Shown here: positions 3 to 11,116 of the stretch, piece after piece
Layout: each line of letters begins with the position of its first letter
How positions within the stretch are numbered: position 1 is the first letter of the stretch
From: an uncultured Chthonomonadaceae bacterium
GTDB taxonomy: Bacteria; Armatimonadota; Chthonomonadetes; Chthonomonadales; Chthonomonadaceae
Direction of reading: 5' to 3'
Length of the DNA stretch: 64,000 nucleotides
Assembly: GCA_963817895.1 (NCBI GenBank)
Contig: CAWFQB010000004.1
Span: 128,001-192,000 of the forward strand
Translations under genes and position numbers: made by a program
Notes under the pieces: model-generated
Told to the model about the DNA's origin: nothing
What the model saw: only the letters and a program-made list of their open reading frames with translations
Databases searched by the model: none

Positions 3-722
3 CCTGACGCGAACAAGCTTGCTCGACAGTCTTTGATTGATGGCGCGCAGACATTCGGACTGGTTCTGGAACCCGCCGTCGTATCGCGCTTTCAACGCTT
101 TGCCCTGCTTCTCGATGAGGGGAACCGCCAATTGAATTTGACGCGCATCCGCCCCGAAGACGTGACCGCGCTGCATTTTCTGGACTCGCTTGTTCTGGCG
201 GCGGCGCATCGCCCCGCGTCCGGCGCTCGCCTGCTGGATGTCGGAACGGGCGCGGGATTTCCCGGCGTGCCGCTTGCCCTCGTGTTTCCCGGTATCAACG
301 TGACCCTGATGGACAGCACGCGCAAACGGCTGGCATGGCTGGACGGCGCGCTTGCCGACCTGAAGTTGACCAACGCCCACACGCTTCACGCCCGCGCCGA
401 AGAGTTGACGCGGGACAGTAAGCACCGCGAACGCTATGACGTGGTGACGGCCCGGGCGGTTGCCCCGCTGTCCAAACTTGCAGACTGGCTGCTGCCGTTT
501 GTCCGTCCGGGCGGGATTGCCGTCGCGTATAAAAGTCAGGAAATTGCCGCAGAAATTAAGGACGCGCAGGCGACATTGCAGGCGCAAGGCGCAATCGTGG
601 AGCAGGTTGCCGAAATCCCTTTGCCGGGTACGGACATCCTGCGCAAACTGATTATCCTGCGCAAGATTCATTCCGTACCCATGCCGCAAAAGCGGGAGAA
701 AACAAGGATTAGCCGCAAATAA
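3..722 (+). CDS. rsmG: 16S rRNA m7G527 methyltransferase (probably 5'-partial)
   Basis: LNLTRI, HFLDSL, DVGTGAGFPG SAM motif and VTARAVA. The frame is open from base 3, so the start may lie outside the window. Confidence 0.93.
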   Translation, partial: PDANKLARQSLIDGAQTFGLVLEPAVVSRFQRFALLLDEGNRQLNLTRIRPEDVTALHFLDSLVLAAAHRPASGARLLDVGTGAGFPGVPLALVFPGINVTLMDSTRKRLAWLDGALADLKLTNAHTLHARAEELTRDSKHRERYDVVTARAVAPLSKLADWLLPFVRPGGIAVAYKSQEIAAEIKDAQATLQAQGAIVEQVAEIPLPGTDILRKLIILRKIHSVPMPQKREKTRISRK

Positions 723-785
723 ACGCGAATATACGCAATTAAGAACGGCGCGAATGATATTTTGTATTGGGAAAGAGGAGCGGAA

Positions 786-1307: not shown

Positions 1308-1354
1308 GCGGAACAAGCCTATTTGAACCCTGTTCTGCTTGAAGTCAGTCGAAC

Positions 1355-1398
1355 GAAAATCAGCCACAGGCCGCAGCGATGCGGTTCCTGTGGCTGAT
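1355..1398 (-). terminator. Intrinsic terminator-like hairpin
   Basis: ATCAGCCACAGG...CCTGTGGCTGAT stem followed by TTTTC on the minus strand. Confidence 0.6.
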
Positions 1399-1625
1399 GT
1401 GTTGTACCTTTCGGAAAGCGGCAATTAACATCTGTGCTTGTTGGGCTTGCCCTGCAAACTGTTAAACAACACACCCAATGAACCCTGCGCTATATGAAAC
1501 TCCTCCGTGTAGATAGGGCGCAGGCGTTTGGCTCCTCATGCGCCGATTGTCACGAGGATTATAGCGAGAATGTGGGGAAAGTTCAGGGGGGCGCGGCACA
1601 TTGCGAAATATTTCCTCCTGTCTTT

Positions 1626-4541
1626 TCACCTGCTGATAGCCACTGGCGATAGCCCTTTCGACTGGCGCAATTGCTCAAATCGCCGAACTTCGTCGTTGCT
1701 CACTTGTGTGTTGTCAAGTGAGAGATATTGCAGTTGGGTTAGGGCATTCAGGGGTGTCAGGTCGCTTACTGGGGTGTTAGCGAGGTAGAGCAATTGCAGT
1801 TCGGTGAGTTCACTCAATGGTGTTAAGTCATGCGTCTGCGTGCTGACAAGGGAAAGTTCCAATAGTTTAGTGAGTTTGCTGATAGGAGTCAAATCACTAA
1901 CCTGTGTGTTGTCGGCGGAGAGTATCTGCAGTCGTGTGAATTTGGCGAGAGGAGTCAAGTCGCTTACTTGCGTGTTATCGAGGTCGAGCCATTGCAGTTC
2001 GGTAAGGCTGCTCAGAGGCGTCAAGTCTCGCGTCTGTGTATTCGTAAGAAAGAGCCTTTGTAACTGGGTGAGACTACTGAGAGGAGTCAAATCGCGAATA
2101 TAGGGGCGATACGCTTCCACTGTACCCTCAAATATTTGCAGTCCTGCTAGAATAGAGGGTATCTGGGCGTAGGTGACAACAGCCAGCAGGTCTTCGGGGG
2201 GCAGAAGGGCGGCAAGTTCATTCAGCACGGCGGCGCGATGATCCTGATGTAGGTAGTCGCGCAAACATTCGCGCGCCCGTTCGCTCTGCATCTTGCCCAG
2301 TCCTCGCACACACGCCGCCGCATCCTTTTCCGGCATGTCTTTGCGCCATGCCAGGAACTCTACGGCGGTTTCCCCGGCTCCCGCCAGTGCTTCCGCTTTC
2401 TTGAACGTGTTGATGGGCAGCATCCGCTTGCGCAGACCGCTTACCTGCTGTTCCAGCGTTGTGTCGAGCCGATACGCCAGACGCCCGTGCGCTTTGAGGA
2501 CTATCACTTCACGCCGCTGACGGCATTTCTTGTCCAGCCCCTGCATGTTCATCAGGGCTTCCATTAGGCTTTGCACGTATGTCCGGCTGCTATCCGACCC
2601 GGCGGCAAACAGCAGGATAGGCTCCCACCGCTCCACGTCCCCGGCATCTACCTTCTTCATCAGGAACTCGATCTCACCCTGCTCCACAAACTCCAGCGCG
2701 GCCAGATAGTCGCGCAGGGAGTTGTGAACGAACTCCACATCGTTCTGCCCGCACGGGCGTATCAGGCCGCTACGTTGTTCCAGGCCGCACAACACCTGTT
2801 CCGCTTCCACATAGTCGTGGTTTTGTGCGCCCCCTATCGCGGTCGCCACTTCCCGCGCTGCATTGGCGCGTCCGATACGCGACCCCTCCTCCCGCGCAAT
2901 GAGCCACGCCAGATGCTGCGCCACAGCCAGCCGCATTGTTCTGTTCAGCGCATAGTAGGCGGGCGGGAACACTTCGCGCGGCACTTTATTGAGCCAGTCC
3001 CGGTCAAAAGCCAGCATGTTACACGCGCTCTGGCACAAATCATGCTCGTTTTGCGGCAGCGATTCTCGGTACAATCGGTTCAGAGCGCACAGCAGGGCGC
3101 ACAGCAGCGGATTGGCCGCCAGCAGCCCCACTGCATAGTTTGTCTTCATCTCCGCAAGCAGGCGCTGCTCGCGCTCTGCCAGTTCCTTCACGTCCTCCTT
3201 CGCATCGCCCAACTGCTGCCGCACGGCCTCATGCCAGCGCCGAACACACTCTGCCCGACCAAACGGCGACAGGTCGCGTATCTCGTACTCAACGAAATCC
3301 GCGTCTTTCAGCGCGTTCTCCTCCAACGCCGCCGGTCGGCTCGTTACGACAATCACATTCTCCGCAGAATAATCGCGTGTCAGTCCGCGTATCCATTTCA
3401 GCGCATCCTGCCGCCGCGCCTGCGACAGCTCATCCAATCCATCCAGCAGCAGCAGGCCACGCCCCTCGTTCAAAATACGTTTGGCCCACCCCGGCGGCGG
3501 TTCCTCATCGGGAGCGCCGCCCTTATGAAACTCTTCGGGCGTCGGCAATGTTCCCGTTTCCCAATCCCGCAGCCGCAGGTAAAACGGCGTTTTCTCACGC
3601 CATGCGGACATTCGCCTACCCTCGTCAAACTGCTTTCCATAGTCTTTGTCCACGGGCCGCATTTCGAGTTCCGGCCATTGCCTCTGCGCCGCTTCCAGCG
3701 CCAGCCAGCGCATCATCGTGGTTTTACCACACCCCGCCTTGCCGACAACCAGGGCGCGCTTCGTGGGGGATTTCAGCGCGTCCAGCAGCGCATCCGCCTG
3801 CACATCGCCGGGCAGTTCCGACAGCGACCGCCCTTGAGTCAGCGTCAGCGTCACATACGCTACCGAAAGCGTCTGCTTGCGCGACTCTTTGTGCAGCGGC
3901 TTCCCCTCGATAAACAACTCCACGTAATTGAGCGTGTCCGCCACAACCGCGCGATACTTGCGCTCGAAATCTGCGTATTCCTCCCAATGCGTTGCGGCCT
4001 GCGCGTTTTGCTCATTTAGCGTATCCGTGATATACGCCAGCAATTTCTCCTGATAGTCTGGCATATTCGGAAGCAATGGAAGAAACGCCCGAAGGTTTTT
4101 CACTATCAGTAGGTCGTGATACCTATCGTACTCTACATTGCCGCGCCCCAGAGGAACCGCGCGTTTCGCGTTCCAAAGGGCGGGCAGCCTTTCCAGCATT
4201 ACACGATTTTTCAGCAGTTCCGCAAAGTCGAAACCCGCTTCCATCGTGATCCAAGCCTCTCTGTCTAAGTCATCGATGTCCAGAGTGCAGCCTTCGCGTT
4301 GTGCCTGTTGTTTCACTTCTTTCAGAATTTGTCGCCGATTCTCTTCCAAGCGCAGATTGTGAAGAATGGCTTCCTGTTGCTTTTCCAGCACATCGCTGCC
4401 AAGTGCGAGCGTGCCCGTCACCGCGCCTGCATAATTGCCGGAGCCGACGGCAATCAGCACGTTCGCCACTTTCAGGCCAAAAGCACTTGCAGATTTCAAA
4501 GAAGTCGCTATTGGTTGTTTTCGTTTGTCTCTGTCTACCAC
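1626..4541 (-). CDS. NACHT NTPase with C-terminal leucine-rich repeats (NLR-like STAND protein), paralog 1
   Basis: Walker A GKAGCGKTT, Walker B LLLLDGLDE, VTSRP, NPLL; six 22-aa internalin-like LRRs (DLTPL..L..L..L.L.NTQVS). Confidence 0.88.
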   Translation of the reverse strand: MVDRDKRKQPIATSLKSASAFGLKVANVLIAVGSGNYAGAVTGTLALGSDVLEKQQEAILHNLRLEENRRQILKEVKQQAQREGCTLDIDDLDREAWITMEAGFDFAELLKNRVMLERLPALWNAKRAVPLGRGNVEYDRYHDLLIVKNLRAFLPLLPNMPDYQEKLLAYITDTLNEQNAQAATHWEEYADFERKYRAVVADTLNYVELFIEGKPLHKESRKQTLSVAYVTLTLTQGRSLSELPGDVQADALLDALKSPTKRALVVGKAGCGKTTMMRWLALEAAQRQWPELEMRPVDKDYGKQFDEGRRMSAWREKTPFYLRLRDWETGTLPTPEEFHKGGAPDEEPPPGWAKRILNEGRGLLLLDGLDELSQARRQDALKWIRGLTRDYSAENVIVVTSRPAALEENALKDADFVEYEIRDLSPFGRAECVRRWHEAVRQQLGDAKEDVKELAEREQRLLAEMKTNYAVGLLAANPLLCALLCALNRLYRESLPQNEHDLCQSACNMLAFDRDWLNKVPREVFPPAYYALNRTMRLAVAQHLAWLIAREEGSRIGRANAAREVATAIGGAQNHDYVEAEQVLCGLEQRSGLIRPCGQNDVEFVHNSLRDYLAALEFVEQGEIEFLMKKVDAGDVERWEPILLFAAGSDSSRTYVQSLMEALMNMQGLDKKCRQRREVIVLKAHGRLAYRLDTTLEQQVSGLRKRMLPINTFKKAEALAGAGETAVEFLAWRKDMPEKDAAACVRGLGKMQSERARECLRDYLHQDHRAAVLNELAALLPPEDLLAVVTYAQIPSILAGLQIFEGTVEAYRPYIRDLTPLSSLTQLQRLFLTNTQTRDLTPLSSLTELQWLDLDNTQVSDLTPLAKFTRLQILSADNTQVSDLTPISKLTKLLELSLVSTQTHDLTPLSELTELQLLYLANTPVSDLTPLNALTQLQYLSLDNTQVSNDEVRRFEQLRQSKGLSPVAISR

Positions 4542-4705
4542 TACCTTGCTACCTCGTGCCTCTCCTTATGCCAACAATAATTTCGTTAGAATAGCAACAA
4601 TGAGTTGGACACAATGTGTTCGATCTACTACTCATGGACAACAAGCCGGTAACAGATGAATGGCAAGGGCGCATAGAGATACTCACAGTGCTATAATGTG
4701 GTTAA

Positions 4706-7531
4706 TCATATAATAATTGGTATTGCTGAAAGTCCTTTCGATTGACGAAGCCTCTGAAGGTTCTGAATTTCCTCGTCGCTCACCTGGGTGTTGGTGAGAT
4801 AGAGCATTTGCAGTTGGTCTAGTCCGCTCAGGGGCGTCAGGTCGCTCACCTGGGTGTTGGTAAGATCGAGCCATTGCAGTTGGTCTAGTCCGCTCAGAGG
4901 CGTCAGGTCGCTCACCTGGGTATCATTGAGGACAAGCCGTTGTAGTTGGTTTAGTCCGCTCAGAGGCGTCAGGTCGCTCACCTGGGTGTTGGTGAGATAG
5001 AGCATTTGCAGTTGGTCTAGTCCGCTCAGGGGCGTCAGGTCGCTCACCTGGGTGTTGGTAAGATCGAGCCATTGCAGTTGGTCTAGTCCGCTCAGAGGCG
5101 TCAGGTCGCTCACCTGGGTATCATTGAGGACAAGCCGTTGTAGTTGGTTTAGTCCGCTCAGGGGCGTCAGGTCGCTCACCTGGGTGTTGGTGAGATAGAG
5201 CATTTGCAGTTGGTCTAGTCCGCTCAGAGGCGTCAGGTCGCTCACCTGGGTATCATTGAGGACAAGCCGTTGTAGTTGGTTTAGTCCGCTCAGAGGCGTC
5301 AGGTCGCGAATGTAGGGACGGTACGCTTCCGGTAAGCCGTTATATGTTTGTAGTCCTGACAGAACGAAAGGAATATCAAATATGTTTACCACGGCAAGCA
5401 CATCTTCCGGTAGCAGAATGTTAGCGAGTTCGTCTAGCACAGCAGGACATGGCTTATTATGAAGATAAACCAAAAGAGCATCGCACGCTTGTTCGTTCTC
5501 TATACGCCCCAGGCCGCGTACGCAAGTAATTGCAATATCTTCCGTCTGGCACTCATGCCATTCCAAGTACTCGACGGCTGCCGCTCCCGCTTTCGCAAGT
5601 GCCTCCGCCTTCTCTATCGTATCTACTGGCAGTAATTGCTTGCGAATGGTGGTAATTTGTGTTGTCAACTCCGCGCCTAACGGTATCGGAATGTGCGCGG
5701 CCACTTTCAGTGCAATCAGTTCACGATAGTGGTAGTCGTCAGAATTTTGCCTGCGTTTATCTAATATCTTAGTTAATAACGCTCGTCCGAACTCATAGTT
5801 ACGGTCAGTTGCAGCGGCAAACAGCAATACTGGCTCCCATCGTTCCAAATCTCCCGAAGCTATCTGCCTTACCAGAAAAGCGGTCTCGTTACGTTGCACC
5901 AGAAGGAGCGATGCCAGATAGTCACGCAGAGCGTTGTGGACGAACTCAATTTCATCTTCATCCACTTCCCGCAGCAGACTACTCCGGTCAATCAAGCCTT
6001 TCAGCACATTTTCGGCTTCTGTCTGGTCGGGATTCGCCGCGCCGTGCAGCGTGGTCGCCACAATGTCTATCGCCCCCGCCCTTGACAGCGCCGGGACGCT
6101 TTCTTTCACCAGCGCGTAGGCGAGATGCTGCGCCACGAGCAGGCGCGTCGGATAGTTCAAATTGTCGTAATCGGGAAGGAAATTTTGTGTCGCTATGCCC
6201 TGAAGCTGGTCGCGGTCGTACAGCAGCATTTTGCACGCGCTTTCGCACAGGTCGCGCAGGTTTTGCGGCAGCGAGGCGACATACACGCGGTTGAGGGCGC
6301 ACAGTAGCGCGCACAGCAGGGGATTGGCCGCAAGCAGGGCAATGGAGCGGTTGGTTTGCAGTTCATGCAGCAATCGCGTCTGCTTCTCATCCAGGTTTGC
6401 AATTCTGTCCGGCAGGACGCTAAGGCGTTTGCGCACCGCCGCATGCCACTTCTGCACGAACTCCACTTTGCCCGACGGCGACAGGTCACGCACCCCGTAC
6501 TCGCGGAAGCCTTCTGCGGCCAGCGCGTCCGTCTTCACTGCCTGCGGACGGCTGCTCGCCACAAACACGTTTTCGGACGGCAGGTTTGTGGTCAGTTCCC
6601 GTATCCACTCCAACGCGAGTAGACGGCGCGCGGGCGCAAGTTCATCCAGGCCATCCAGCAGGACAAGGCCGCGCCCCGCATCCAGAATACGCTGCGCCCA
6701 CCCCGGCGGCGGTTTATGCCCCGTAATTCCCCAGGCGTGAAACCCGTCCGTGTCCGGGAACGTCCCGTCCTTGCAGTCGCGCAACCGAATGAGAAACGGG
6801 ATTTTGCTGCGCCACGATTCGGCTGTCCCCCGTTCGCGCTCCAATCCGCGCCGCATCGCTTCTTCCGGCTCCGCGTCCATATCCACCTCGCGCATACGGG
6901 CCGCTTCCAATCCGATCCAGCGCAGCAGCGTGGTTTTGCCGCACCCTGCCGGCCCGACCACCAGAACACGGCGCGGACCTTCCGGCAGATTGTCCAGCAG
7001 GCTGTCTGCCGGTACACTGCCCACCAGACTTTCGCCCTCCCGTCCCCGCGTCAATTCCAGGGTGACGTACGCGACCGTGAGTTCCTGCCGGCGCGCCTCA
7101 TCGGGAACATCCTGCCGCTCGATAAACAACTCCACGCGATCCAGTTTCTTCATCAGGGCATCGCGGTACGTGTATTCGAACTGCAAGTCATGCGCTTGCT
7201 CTTGACTGAGTGGTACTACTGTATGTGAAAGTGATACATCAAAGGATGTTGTTAGAGGTGGCTCTACATCATCTGGCTCTAAGTCCAAGCCAACGGCCTT
7301 GAATAAGGCACGAATAGAACTTAATCGTACAGTTTGAGCATTTTGTCGCCCATATCTAATAGTTCGCACTGTGCTTCGTCCAAGATTAGAACTTTGTGTT
7401 AAAAGTTCCTCTGTCCATCTTTTTTGTTGAGTACCATCGCTAGTCGTAGGCAGACCTGACCCTTGAGTAATGGCTACCTCAAGTCGCGCTACGCCCTTTT
7501 GCGATAAAATGTAAGCATTTTCTTTTGTCAT
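4706..7531 (-). CDS. HTH-like N-terminus + NACHT + LRR protein (NLR-like), paralog 2
   Basis: Walker A GPAGCGKTT, Walker B LVLLDGLDE, SSRP, NPLL; eight 22-aa LRRs; N-terminal WTEELL...LGRSTVRTI resembles an HTH. Confidence 0.88.
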   Translation of the reverse strand: MTKENAYILSQKGVARLEVAITQGSGLPTTSDGTQQKRWTEELLTQSSNLGRSTVRTIRYGRQNAQTVRLSSIRALFKAVGLDLEPDDVEPPLTTSFDVSLSHTVVPLSQEQAHDLQFEYTYRDALMKKLDRVELFIERQDVPDEARRQELTVAYVTLELTRGREGESLVGSVPADSLLDNLPEGPRRVLVVGPAGCGKTTLLRWIGLEAARMREVDMDAEPEEAMRRGLERERGTAESWRSKIPFLIRLRDCKDGTFPDTDGFHAWGITGHKPPPGWAQRILDAGRGLVLLDGLDELAPARRLLALEWIRELTTNLPSENVFVASSRPQAVKTDALAAEGFREYGVRDLSPSGKVEFVQKWHAAVRKRLSVLPDRIANLDEKQTRLLHELQTNRSIALLAANPLLCALLCALNRVYVASLPQNLRDLCESACKMLLYDRDQLQGIATQNFLPDYDNLNYPTRLLVAQHLAYALVKESVPALSRAGAIDIVATTLHGAANPDQTEAENVLKGLIDRSSLLREVDEDEIEFVHNALRDYLASLLLVQRNETAFLVRQIASGDLERWEPVLLFAAATDRNYEFGRALLTKILDKRRQNSDDYHYRELIALKVAAHIPIPLGAELTTQITTIRKQLLPVDTIEKAEALAKAGAAAVEYLEWHECQTEDIAITCVRGLGRIENEQACDALLVYLHNKPCPAVLDELANILLPEDVLAVVNIFDIPFVLSGLQTYNGLPEAYRPYIRDLTPLSGLNQLQRLVLNDTQVSDLTPLSGLDQLQMLYLTNTQVSDLTPLSGLNQLQRLVLNDTQVSDLTPLSGLDQLQWLDLTNTQVSDLTPLSGLDQLQMLYLTNTQVSDLTPLSGLNQLQRLVLNDTQVSDLTPLSGLDQLQWLDLTNTQVSDLTPLSGLDQLQMLYLTNTQVSDEEIQNLQRLRQSKGLSAIPIII
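4776..5306 (-). repeat. Eight 66-bp tandem LRR-coding units of three near-identical variants
   Basis: AGGTCGC recurs at 4839, 4905, 4971, 5037, 5103, 5169, 5235 and 5301. Confidence 0.97.
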
Positions 7532-7722
7532 ACAACGTTCTCCTTCGTGTTCATATAGATATTCTACCCCAAATGACGAAATTTCTCAAACAAATTCAAA
7601 CAAACTGAAACAAACAGCATTATGGTGTCGTCTGCAAGTACATACGCTAGGTACTGAAGATGAAAATCAGTACGTTTCTCGGACCGTGATCTATCTATTG
7701 TGATAAGAGAGGACATGCAACA

Positions 7723-8022
7723 ATGACACGCCAGGCACTCCATATCTTCTTTGCCGCGTTTAGTGGCGCTCTAAGCGTTTACGTTTTCGCGCTGGCAGCC
7801 AATTACCAGAAGGCACCTTCCCAGTTCCATATGCCTTCATTCAATGATGTGATCGCCAAGATCATTATAGTAACATTCTACACCATCATTCATCTCTTGG
7901 TTGCTGTCCTCAGCGCAAACAAGAAACAAGCCAGCAATGAAGACGTCACCAAACAGGTGGCAATCGCGTTTCTCGCTAATATGGTCTTGGAACTTGTGCA
8001 GGCTGTGGTCTCTGGTCATTGA
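7723..8022 (+). CDS. Small membrane protein (about 3 TM helices)
   Basis: GAGGA RBS; three hydrophobic segments; divergent from the NACHT gene; lower GC. Confidence 0.65.
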   Translation: MTRQALHIFFAAFSGALSVYVFALAANYQKAPSQFHMPSFNDVIAKIIIVTFYTIIHLLVAVLSANKKQASNEDVTKQVAIAFLANMVLELVQAVVSGH

Positions 8023-8411
8023 TTTTGCATCATGTGACTGCTTGATTCTAACCTTATCATTGGTCAGCCTGCCTACAAGTAAGAAGGTAGCCTATGGCCG
8101 GATGAGGGTAGAATCTCATGCCTGCACAATCGCCTCCAAGGTTCAAATTTATCTGAAATATTTTCGCGAAAACAGTCTGGGGGTACTTCTAAAATCGCCG
8201 CCCAGTGTTAATATACGGCGTGTACAAAAACCGAATACCGTCCCCACTAACAAGGGAGGGAGGTGCAAAAGATGCCTGTTCACATCCGACCGCCCTGACG
8301 CTTACGAGGTCACGACGCCTCTACTGACAATTAAATAACACAACGAGACCGAGTGCTGAAAGCGCTGCATTGCCATTATTTCGACAACGTCTCCCTATAT
8401 TGTTAGGACAC

Positions 8412-8524: not shown

Positions 8525-11035
8525 TCAGTGCGCCATTGTGGCCGCTTCCTGTGGCGGGGCGGCGTTGTCTATGTCGTCCGCGATGGAGCCGCGCTTGCTG
8601 AACAGGATCGCGCCCGTCAAAGCCGCGCCCACGACGCCGCAGATCAGGATGCGAACCTTCACGCCAATGTCCTGAATCACGATCCCCGCGATGAGGATGC
8701 CTGTCAGGTTCATAACCTTGATGAGCGGGTTCAGGGCGGGGCCGGCGGTGTCCTTGAACGGGTCGCCAACCGTGTCGCAGATAATCGCCGCTTTGTGGAA
8801 CTCGGTTCCCTTGCCGCCGAACAGGCCGTCCTCAATCTTCTTCTTGGCGTTGTCCCACGCGCCGCCCGAATTGGACAGCAGGACGGCCAGCAGTTGCCCG
8901 CTGACAATCGCCCCGGCAAGATACCCGCCCAATGCCGCCGCGCCCGTTTGCGGATTGCGGAAGCCCAGCCCGAAGCCGACGAGAATCGGCAGGCCGATGG
9001 CGAGAATGCCCGGTCCGAGCAGTTCCTTTTGCGCCGCTGCGGTGGAAATAGCGACGCAGCGCGCATAATCCGGCTTGCTGGTTCCCAACATGATGCCCGG
9101 ATCGTTGCGGAATTGGCGGCGAACTTCTTCAATCAGTTGAAAGGCCGCGCGTCCGACCGCGTTGATGGCGAAACTGGAGAACAGATACGGGAGCCGCGCC
9201 GCCAATCAGCAGGCCGATGAACACTTCCGGCACTTCCAGCCGGATACCCACGTTCCAACAGCCCCGCGTCCGTCATAAACGAGCGGAACAGGGCGACGGC
9301 CGCGATAACCGCTGTGGCAATCGCAAAGCCTTTGGTCAGGGCTTTGGTGGTGTTGCCGACCGCGTCCAGTTTGGTCACGATGCGGTGTCCCGACATGCCG
9401 CTCTTGGTTTCCGTTCGCCCTGCCGCCGCGTCCTCTTCCAACACGCCCGACATCTCGAAAATGCCGTTCGCGTTGTCGGTAATCGGGCCGAAAGTGTCCA
9501 TTGCCAGAATGTAGCCCGTTGTCGTCAGCAGTCCCAACCCGGAAAGCGCGATGCCATACGCGGCGAGCAGCGGGTTGTTGGGGAAGATGGACAGGGCGAA
9601 TACCAGGGTCAGGGCAATGGCGAGCGCGCTCCAGACGGAACTCTCCAGCCCATAGGAAAAGCCGGAAATAATCATCGTGGCCGGCCCGGTTTTGGAGTTG
9701 TACGCGATTTCGCGGACAGGCTTCTTTTCAACGGACGTAAAGTATTCCGTCATCCAGCCGATGACAAGCGCGAGAATGATACCGAGGAACGTACACGCGA
9801 AGAAGCGCCACCACTCCACAACCGCATGCCCATTGGCATCCGGCAACTCTACGCCATGCGCTCGGACGCCATTCACCACATTGAAGACATCGAAGTACAG
9901 ATAGGAGCCGATGCCGAAGAACACAGTTGCGAGAGCGGCAGAAACATAAAAGCCCGTGTTGATGGGCTTCATGGGATCGAGGTCTTCGCGGTCTTCGCCT
10001 TTCACGGCCAGAACGCCGATAATACTGGCAAACACGCCCGCCGCGCGCACAATCAGCGGGTACATAATCAACTGCAACGCGCTGTGCGCAAGCGCGGTGC
10101 TGCTTCCCCAACTGCTTGCGGGAACAATGGCCGCGCCCAGAATGATGGCGGCAACCAGCGTCACTTCGTAGCTCTCGAACACGTCGGCGGCCATGCCCGC
10201 GCAGTCGCCCACGTTATCGCCCACGTTGTCGGCAATGGTTGCGGGGTTGCGGGGGTCGTCTTCGGGAATACCCGCTTCCACTTTGCCCACAAGGTCCGCG
10301 CCCACATCAGCGGCTTTGGTGAAGATACCGCCGCCCACGCGCATAAACAGCGCGGCGAGCGACCCGCCGAAGCCGAAGCCGACCAGAATCAGCATCGCCT
10401 TTTCTTTGTAAATCAGAAAGACCAGACACGCGCCGACAAGCCCAAGCCCGACGGTCATCATGCCCGACACGGCCCCGGCCCGGAACGCGGTTTCCAATGC
10501 GCCTTTAAACGTGGTGCGCGCCTGATTTGCCGTGCGCTGGTTGGCAAGGGTCGCCATGCCCATGCCGACATAACCGGCGACATACGAGGCCGCGACGCCC
10601 AGAATGAAGAACAGCGATACGCCCAACGCTTCATTTATGCCATAGCCAAGTTTGTCCTGACCCTTGTACAGCACAAACAGCAGGACGGCAATCACGACGA
10701 CAAGCGGCGACATCGTCTTCACCTGCTGCAGCAGATACGGCCAGCGCGCCATCTCGAATGGCTTTGCCGACCTCTTCCATTTTCGCCGTGCCTGCGCTCT
10801 GGCTTTTCACCTGCCCGAACCAGACAGCGCCCACGATCAGCGAAATAATACCGGAAATCATCGCAAACCAGATCAGACTGGTTTCCGAAGAAGTGAACGT
10901 GGGAAGCTGGACGGCTTCCGAAGCATGCGCCGCGTTTGCCAACGTCAGCAGCCCCAATCCCATCAAAGGCGGAAGCCAGCTTGCCTTCCGCCGCGCGCAC
11001 CCGGGCCGCCAAAGCCCCATACGGCGTTCTCTCAT
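8525..11035 (-). CDS. hppA: Membrane-bound H+-translocating pyrophosphatase, likely K+-independent (frameshifts near 10745 and 9245)
   Basis: [49 protein letters not shown] (Lys) is the K+-independent signature. The pieces lie in three frames. Confidence 0.93.
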
Positions 11036-11116
11036 TGTGTTGCCATTCCTCCATATCTGCAAGTATTTGCAGAATTATATGCGATTTGCGGCACATTAGT
11101 CAAGTAGAATTTTGGT

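What the first reader, a model, noticed from the sequence alone, without database searches (positions are those of the whole stretch)
1626..7531. Tandem pair of NLR-like NACHT-LRR paralogs with unrelated N-terminal modules
Seen: two same-strand genes share the NACHT core, linker, LRR consensus and C-terminal cap (LRQSKGLS). Their N-termini are unrelated: HTH-like in one, and in the other a helical domain with a Gly/Ala-rich hydrophobic stretch (VANVLIAVGSGNYAGAVTGTLALG). The NACHT cores look more GC-rich than the termini. Known: bacterial NACHT proteins can be anti-phage sensors, and effector-NACHT-LRR is the animal NLR architecture. Inference: a paired sensor system, one arm transcriptional and one possibly membrane-acting, assembled by domain shuffling.
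Basis: partly seen in the sequence, partly recalled or inferred. Interest (0 to 1): 0.72.

Follow-up and report, generated by a model that had tools for sequence, protein, structure and literature searches.

The report
Immune sensor with swapped-in DNA-binding head
Two neighbouring bacterial genes of a known immune-receptor-like family share a sensing core, but one has traded the family's usual helical head for a DNA-binding head that likely controls the pair through a triple repeat in its own promoter; the pairing was not found in related genomes and its defence role is untested.

Summary
Observation confirmed: two intact minus-strand NACHT-LRR genes (941 and 971 aa, 49% identical) with unrelated N-termini and a GC-richer core. 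Both belong to the known NNH1-NACHT-LRR family of bacterial NLR-related proteins (108 of 120 listed homologues carry Pfam NNH1). Gene 2's head is not a new membrane effector: it is a diverged NNH1 domain (profile match 94-96%), below transmembrane hydrophobicity and predicted to self-associate through its C-terminal helix. Gene 1's head has an XRE/Cro HTH fold. Its only relative found is fused to a different NACHT lineage, so it was swapped in. A triple 10-bp direct repeat, unique in the genome, overlaps gene 1's predicted -35 box and is a candidate operator. The pair is not conserved: the sister species has gene 2's orthologue alone at another site, a second relative has an empty site, and the two cores are not sisters. 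Best reading: separately acquired phage sensors in a variable slot, with the HTH-bearing one likely controlling expression of both. This is a new variant of a known kind, untested.

The parts
4706..7531 (-). Gene 1, 941 aa: XRE-type HTH - NACHT module - helical cap - 8 internalin-type LRRs
7256..7531 (-). Gene 1 N-terminal XRE/Cro-C1 HTH (about aa 1-92), low GC3 (0.27)
   Evidence: AlphaFold pLDDT 83; Foldseek top rows HigA2, C.Esp1396I, C.AhdI, HipB, prob 0.6-1.0 but E >= 0.02; VIA-align best Z 7.2 with most of the top 50 rows XRE/Cro-type HTH; GC
5897..7180 (-). Gene 1 NACHT core (aa 118-545): Walker A 193-201, Walker B 291-297, winged-helix His532
4778..5305 (-). Gene 1 LRR array: eight 22-aa units of three types in the order A B A C B A C B; same-type units differ by 0-1 nt; only positions 9, 13, 15, 17, 18 vary
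1626..4541 (-). Gene 2, 971 aa: diverged NNH1 helical head - NACHT module - helical cap - 6 LRRs
3972..4541 (-). Gene 2 NNH1-like all-helical head (aa 1-190), including the Gly/Ala stretch (aa 25-48, nt 4398-4469); predicted self-association through aa 162-182
2682..3968 (-). Gene 2 NACHT core (aa 192-620): Walker A 267-275, Walker B 365-371, winged-helix His606
1698..2093 (-). Gene 2 LRR array, six diverged 22-aa units
7585..7614 (-). Three direct repeats at 10-bp period (core TTTGTTT), candidate operator of the gene 1 HTH
   Evidence: unique in the genome and in 1 of 68 class genomes; 8 of 10 columns identical, versus at most 5 upstream of 11 other family genes and 0 of 400 shuffles reaching 8
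7561..7589 (-). Sigma70-like promoter TTGAGA-17-TAGAAT, 30 bp upstream of gene 1; its -35 box overlaps the third repeat
   Evidence: 10 of 12 matches; the scan as a whole found 3 sites versus 4.6 by chance
1352..1403 (.). Hairpin, terminator-like on the minus strand, downstream of gene 2
7723..8022 (+). 99-aa hydrophobic ORF, divergent from gene 1; orphan, status as a gene unproven
   Evidence: found in 1 of 68 genomes
8240..8405 (+). Copy of a genus-specific dispersed element (47 copies in this genome) at the edge of the variable slot

Best explanation
These are two likely separately acquired bacterial NLR-type sensors of the NNH1-NACHT-LRR family, likely anti-phage and likely transcribed together, in which gene 1's swapped-in HTH likely binds the triple repeat over its own promoter and so would set expression of both. 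Mechanism (inferred from the family): each protein rests ADP-bound, a foreign protein binds the LRRs, the NACHT module exchanges nucleotide and forms a ring, and the ring clusters the N-terminal heads. For gene 2 the clustered NNH1-like heads, predicted to bundle through helix 162-182, would be the toxic or signalling output. For gene 1 the ring would array several HTHs on the 10-bp-period repeat and change transcription of the unit (repression relieved, or activation). Shown: architecture, intact motifs, folds, origins and the repeat. Inferred: ligand, defence role, co-transcription, DNA binding and the output of NNH1.
For: Family: 108 of 120 listed homologues carry PF22733. Gene 2 head versus 100 NNH1 heads: probability 96.3%, E 1.6e-9, and 94.1%, E 1.3e-7 with the shared tail removed; 10 controls at most 0.3%. 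HTH fold. The single HTH relative P0122 (43% identical) continues into a pre-NACHT segment matching two other-lineage NACHT proteins (E 6e-8, 2e-6) and no family member. The repeat is present only upstream of the HTH-bearing gene and overlaps the -35 box. No minus-strand terminator-like site lies between the genes; one lies after gene 2. Separate origin: gene 1 core is 56-58% identical to P0006/P0007 versus 48% to gene 2, and holding the two cores together is rejected (p-AU 0.031). Slot empty in G008, other cargo in G007. Defence genes within 6 kb at 5 of 11 relative loci; one relative is fused to an ABC-type ATPase ahead of a PtuB-like nuclease. Head tetramer model: score 0.46, best control 0.00, contacts agree at least 76%, pLDDT at least 72; the mark was reached by 20 of 30 true homo-pairs and 1 of 23 monomers. 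bNACHT proteins, including LRR-bearing bNACHT16, behave as NLRs in E. coli (10.1101/2022.07.19.500537).
Against: No experiment. The operator idea rests on one locus; P0122's upstream DNA could not be fetched. XRE domains usually bind palindromes as dimers (recalled), not direct repeats. The promoter scan is not above chance overall. Pfam NNH1 does not hit gene 2's head; the trimmed NNH1 profile scores it only 1.9 bits, and the five closest heads alone give 38%, so the NNH1 link runs through intermediates. No PADLOC system matches either gene and no known defence gene sits in this slot. The 5-of-11 neighbour count has no matched random control. The tetramer score is just over the mark (0.42), and the calibration covered two copies only.
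Confidence: 0.45

Rival explanations
1. The two genes are fully independent sensors that landed in the same insertion hotspot; the HTH at most regulates gene 1 alone, and gene 2 keeps its own promoter.
For: Gene 2's orthologue is solitary in G007. The 164-bp gap has room for a promoter (a TG-extended TATTCT lies in it, read by eye). Tandem copies occur in only 3 of 53 actinobacterial genomes with a match. The slot holds other cargo in G007.
Against: Same strand, no terminator-like site between the genes, and only one consensus promoter, upstream of gene 1. Gene 1's cap and LRR region is closer to gene 2's lineage (66-70% versus 38-58% in windows from aa 718-797), hinting at past exchange.
Confidence: 0.27
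2. A non-defence STAND regulator pair: gene 1 is a MalT/AfsR-like ligand-gated transcription factor, and gene 2 a signalling partner for an endogenous cue.
For: HTH head; the genome holds many SARP-type STAND regulators; defence and non-defence STAND clades are interspersed (PMC13581612, passages).
Against: Patchy distribution (13 of 401 phylum genomes); broken copies in this genome and in G007; reshuffled LRR surface positions; defence neighbours.
Confidence: 0.13
3. An obligate sensor-helper pair (NAIP/NLRC4-like or plant paired-NLR-like) that forms a mixed ring.
For: Adjacent, co-oriented, same family, 49% identical; similar C-terminal regions.
Against: No second instance of the pair among 6 of 41 family genomes or 12 of 400 phylum genomes with a match (only 3 candidates were scored per genome). 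Both genes keep intact Walker motifs and full LRR arrays. The gene 1 head was not found in 41 family genomes.
Confidence: 0.1
4. Gene 2's head is a new transmembrane pore-forming effector unrelated to known NACHT heads.
For: Gly/Ala-rich helices 11-47 are low-confidence in the model (pLDDT 50-59), as flexible membrane-inserting helices can be. Two of 10 close heads reach hydropathy 1.7. Clustered short N-termini cause plasmolysis in bNACHT11 (10.1101/2024.12.17.629029, passages).
Against: Homology to NNH1; hydropathy 1.2-1.3 versus a median of 1.4 for 100 NNH1 heads; several relatives carry charged residues in the same stretch.
Confidence: 0.05

Closest known systems
Bacterial NACHT proteins (bNACHT; Kibby et al., 10.1101/2022.07.19.500537), NNH1-NACHT-LRR type (Pfam PF22733 + PF05729 + LRR_4)
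   Same: Tripartite head-NACHT-repeat layout, D[GAS]hDE Walker B, winged-helix histidine, LRR sensor. The paper states that close NACHT modules keep similar sensors while N-terminal domains vary within a genus, and lists HTH and NNH among the domains.
   Different: Gene 2's NNH1 is too diverged for Pfam; gene 1 has an XRE HTH in its place (not seen among 120 listed homologues or 27 loci); candidate operator; tandem arrangement.
bNACHT16 (Vibrio campbellii, NACHT-LRR)
   Same: LRR-bearing bacterial NACHT whose winged-helix His mutants are autoactive; the histidine is present in both genes here.
   Different: Its N-terminal domain and clade were not visible in the text I could read; no sequence comparison was made.
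XRE/Cro controllers of defence and toxin-antitoxin operons (C.AhdI, C.Esp1396I, HipB, CapH)
   Same: Same HTH fold; such proteins autoregulate their operons (recalled).
   Different: Here the HTH is fused to a NACHT-LRR sensor, and the candidate site is a direct repeat, not a palindrome.
Fungal NLRs with highly conserved internal repeats (het-e/nwd; PMC4986451, passages)
   Same: Near-identical repeat units, variation at a few surface positions, N-terminal domain swaps on similar cores.
   Different: Those use WD40, ANK or TPR repeats; here they are internalin-type LRRs in a bacterium, and positive selection was not tested.

Membership tests
bNACHT (NACHT clade of STAND NTPases) | NACHT module over Pfam cut-off with intact Walker A | tested here: met
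   59.8 and 74 bits versus cut-off 26.7; GxAGCGKTT
bNACHT (NACHT clade of STAND NTPases) | D[GAS]hDE Walker B signature | tested here: met
   LLDGLDE in both; signature as stated
bNACHT (NACHT clade of STAND NTPases) | Winged-helix domain with conserved histidine | tested here: met
   FVHN motif, His532 and His606; equivalence to NLRC4 H443 is inferred from motif position
bNACHT (NACHT clade of STAND NTPases) | C-terminal repeat sensor | tested here: met
   LRR_4 over cut-off; 8 and 6 units
bNACHT (NACHT clade of STAND NTPases) | Anti-phage activity and ligand-induced oligomerisation | not testable with these tools
   needs phage challenge and biochemistry
NNH1 domain (PF22733), gene 2 head | Score over the Pfam gathering cut-off | tested here: not met
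   no Pfam family hit for the head; so it is called NNH1-like, not a Pfam member
NNH1 domain (PF22733), gene 2 head | Colinear profile homology and same position before the NACHT module | tested here: met
   probability 94-96% over about 150 columns, controls at most 0.3%; the first 12 non-self hits of the head profile among 66,005 ORFs plus 100 NNH1 heads are NNH1
XRE/Cro-C1 HTH, gene 1 head | Lambda-repressor-like helical fold | tested here: met
   individual scores are modest (E >= 0.02, Z <= 7.2) but most listed rows are of this one fold
XRE/Cro-C1 HTH, gene 1 head | Sequence match to an HTH family model | tested here: not met
   no HTH model in Pfam or PHROGs
XRE/Cro-C1 HTH, gene 1 head | Sequence-specific DNA binding | not testable with these tools
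   needs gel shift or footprinting
Paired (sensor-helper) NLR system | Conserved linkage of the two genes across genomes | tested here: not met
Paired (sensor-helper) NLR system | Physical or functional dependence of one protein on the other | not tested
Catalogued defence system (PADLOC, NCBIfam) | Match to a system-specific model | tested here: not met
   only P-loop-level weak hits (mad8 17 bits; DS8 16 bits versus cut-off 790)

The most novel reading that the evidence does not exclude
A bacterial priming NLR: an LRR-gated NACHT ring that acts as a transcription factor, reading a 10-bp-period repeat with its clustered HTH heads to switch on a downstream killer NLR. It would have been built recently by swapping a promoter-plus-HTH cassette onto an NNH1-NACHT-LRR gene, with its LRR specificity re-dealt by internal recombination.
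Probability: 0.18. Interest if true: 0.72.

Novelty: new variant of a known kind. Interest (0 to 1): 0.38.

Why it matters
The architecture is known, and N-terminal swapping is described as usual for bacterial NACHT proteins. What this locus adds is a testable case of the little-studied transcriptional class (an HTH head with a candidate operator right beside it), next to a relative that keeps the ancestral NNH1 head. I found no paper giving NNH1 a function. The locus could show whether a bacterial NLR ring regulates genes directly and what NNH1 does when clustered.

Tried and rejected
Fold search of the gene 2 head: no clear match (Foldseek none at E <= 0.001; VIA-align best Z 5.8, mostly generic coiled coils), so HeLo/MLKL/RPW8 likeness is neither shown nor excluded. 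The protein atlas could not be used. Further HTH relatives: none beyond P0122 (four other hits are repeat proteins or a GAF protein and were set aside). Rfam: nothing near threshold. Collection scans with gene 1 alone found nothing; with an alignment they returned only distant members. Three-way mosaic of gene 1: identity switches toward gene 2's lineage after about aa 630, but the C-terminal tree does not reject grouping with P0006/P0007 (p-AU 0.22), so this stays a hint. Codon-level identity between the two genes gives no sign of recent gene conversion. No RNA holder was listed. One soil DNA run holds short identical contigs in gene 1 and the left flank, none spanning the pair, and may be the source sample. 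An assembly artefact for the LRR array cannot be excluded, but the units differ in a patterned way and P0008 shows identical units too.

Full report
Observation. Both genes are as described: 7531-4706 (941 aa) and 4541-1626 (971 aa), minus strand, 164 bp apart. They are 49% identical from gene 1 residue 118 onward and unalignable before it. Both pass Pfam NACHT and LRR_4 and keep Walker A, the DGLDE Walker B, the winged-helix histidine and the LRQSKGLS cap. The LRRs are 22-aa internalin-type units, 8 in gene 1 and 6 in gene 2. The cores are GC-richer than the heads: GC3 0.73 versus 0.27 (gene 1 head) and 0.55 (gene 2 head).

Family. A search with gene 2 gave 240 relatives; 108 of the 120 listed carry Pfam NNH1 (PF22733) before the NACHT module, many from actinobacteria. 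The 12 without it include the two window proteins, five close relatives, and five others (one unrelated LRR protein). This is the NNH1-NACHT-LRR type of bacterial NLR-related protein. Kibby et al. (10.1101/2022.07.19.500537; abstract, sections 6, 8, 12 and passages read) report anti-phage activity for diverse members. They list HTH and NNH among fused domains, class DNA-binding heads as adaptors, and say N-terminal domains vary within a genus while sensors follow the NACHT module. Their figures and Table S1 were not visible and may already show these architectures.

Gene 2 head. Pfam gives no hit. An alignment of 10 close heads matches 100 NNH1 heads colinearly at 96.3% (E 1.6e-9), and at 94.1% with the shared tail cut away and an 11th head added. 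Reversed, 8 shuffled and one unrelated helical control score at most 0.3%. The link is indirect: the five closest heads alone give 38%, and the trimmed NNH1 profile scores gene 2 itself at 1.9 bits but intermediates at up to 34. The model is all-helical, confident from residue 60, uncertain over 1-50, with no clear structural match. The Gly/Ala stretch reaches hydropathy 1.23, below the NNH1 median of 1.4. A four-copy model scored 0.46 against a best control of 0.00 (contacts agree at least 76%, pLDDT at least 72; mark reached by 20 of 30 true homo-pairs and 1 of 23 monomers; calibration held two copies only), with the interface at 162-182 and 110-114. So this is most likely the family's ancestral head, predicted to cluster; membrane action stays open.

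Gene 1 head. It folds as an XRE/Cro HTH. One true relative was found among 1.84 billion representatives: P0122, 43% identical. Its next segment matches the pre-NACHT region of two other-lineage NACHT proteins and no family member. Gene 1's core is closest to P0006 and P0007 (58%, 56%; support 93/97), which carry NNH1-like heads. The HTH therefore most likely replaced NNH1. Other swaps exist: two loci from the same bacterial family carry a cyclase-type head (Pfam-confirmed for one).

Candidate operator. Three direct repeats at 10-bp period (7585-7614) overlap the -35 box of the one consensus promoter upstream of gene 1. The pattern occurs once in the genome and in 1 of 68 class genomes. It has 8 of 10 columns identical, against at most 5 upstream of 11 other family genes and 0 of 400 shuffles reaching 8; of 600 low-GC genome stretches, 3 reached 8, two being this site. 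A clustered HTH array reading helically phased repeats is an inference from one locus. The promoter scan alone is not above chance.

Is it a pair? The sister genome G007 has a 75%-identical orthologue of gene 2 standing alone in another neighbourhood, plus two broken family copies elsewhere. In G008 the two flanking genes are adjacent, so the 7-kb slot is empty; in G007 the site beside hppA holds a different ATPase/TPR cargo. No tandem copy was seen in 6 of 41 family genomes or 12 of 400 phylum genomes with a match (many are fragmented, and only 3 candidates per genome were scored). Among actinobacterial samples, 3 of 53 distinct genomes with a match had two copies close together. Holding the two cores together is rejected (p-AU 0.031, LG+G4, 12 sequences, grouping named after earlier trees were seen). 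Gene 1's cap and LRRs look closer to gene 2's lineage, but this is not significant (p-AU 0.22).

Defence context. Neither gene matches a catalogued system. At 5 of 11 relative loci a defence gene lies within 6 kb: Septu, AriAB-like, PtuB-like, PDC-S01, type III restriction-modification (82 of 94 called ORFs were scanned; ankyrin, GlgB and PsyrT hits not counted; no random control). Gene 1's LRR array is built from three near-identical unit types varying at five positions, like fungal NLR repeats (PMC4986451, passages); identical units were seen in 2 of 22 family proteins with four or more detected units.

Mechanism. Most likely each protein is an NLR-type switch: ligand on the LRRs, nucleotide exchange, ring formation, head clustering (established for bNACHT11, 10.1101/2024.12.17.629029, passages). 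Gene 2's output would be its NNH1-like bundle; gene 1's would be transcriptional control of the unit through the repeat (confidence 0.45). Rivals: fully independent neighbours (0.27), non-defence regulators (0.13), obligate pair (0.10), new pore domain (0.05).

Novelty. Searches for NNH1, XRE-NACHT autoregulation, repeat shuffling in bacterial NACHT-LRR and paired bacterial NLRs returned no description of an NNH1 function or of an HTH-NACHT-LRR operator in the listings. Passages of PMC13581612, PMC7159879 and PMC8195603 gave none either; their supplements were not read. Verdict: a new variant of a known kind, interest 0.38; the priming-NLR reading has probability about 0.18 and would merit 0.72.

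Noticed in passing
window 8240-8405; G000 C7 85009; L028 11345; L029 12550; L030 10589: A genus-specific dispersed element (47 copies here, at least 40 in G007, 11 in G008) lies within about 0.3-0.75 kb of 5 of 5 NACHT-LRR loci in the genus, always with the gene on its 5' side. Chance for a random 3-kb stretch in this genome is 1.2%; 15 of 16 other STAND genes are more than 8 kb away. It may mark insertion hotspots.
   Followed up: partly
G000:C7:85427-89897 (L021): A third family member with a canonical NNH1 head (135 bits) is split by a two-ORF IS3-like transposase insertion (the IS3 label is recalled).
   Followed up: partly
L051 5568-11017: NNH1-NACHT-LRR fused to a C-terminal ABC/AAA_21 ATPase, directly followed by a PtuB-like HNH gene: an NLR-Septu-type hybrid.
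   Followed up: partly
L014 24-3041; L032 7325-9547: The same NACHT-LRR core with an adenylate/guanylate cyclase head in two genomes of the window's family.
   Followed up: partly
window 8525-11062: The H+-pyrophosphatase gene is split over three frames here but whole (827 aa) in G007, suggesting assembly indel errors or a pseudogene.
   Followed up: partly
L040 13862-15941: In G007 the slot beside hppA holds a short P-loop ATPase ORF and a TPR-like gene instead of the NACHT pair.
   Followed up: no
G000:C2:727138-731181: Another NACHT-family gene preceded by frameshifted phosphoesterase-like ORFs, 1.9 kb from a copy of the dispersed element (the phosphoesterase label is from a recalled motif).
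   Followed up: no
genome-wide, e.g. window 721-753: About 84 copies of a 10-bp-period CGCGAAT triple repeat, often in facing pairs about 110 bp apart.
   Followed up: no
window 7723-8022: Orphan 99-aa ORF with three hydrophobic segments, divergent from gene 1 and sharing its upstream region.
   Followed up: partly
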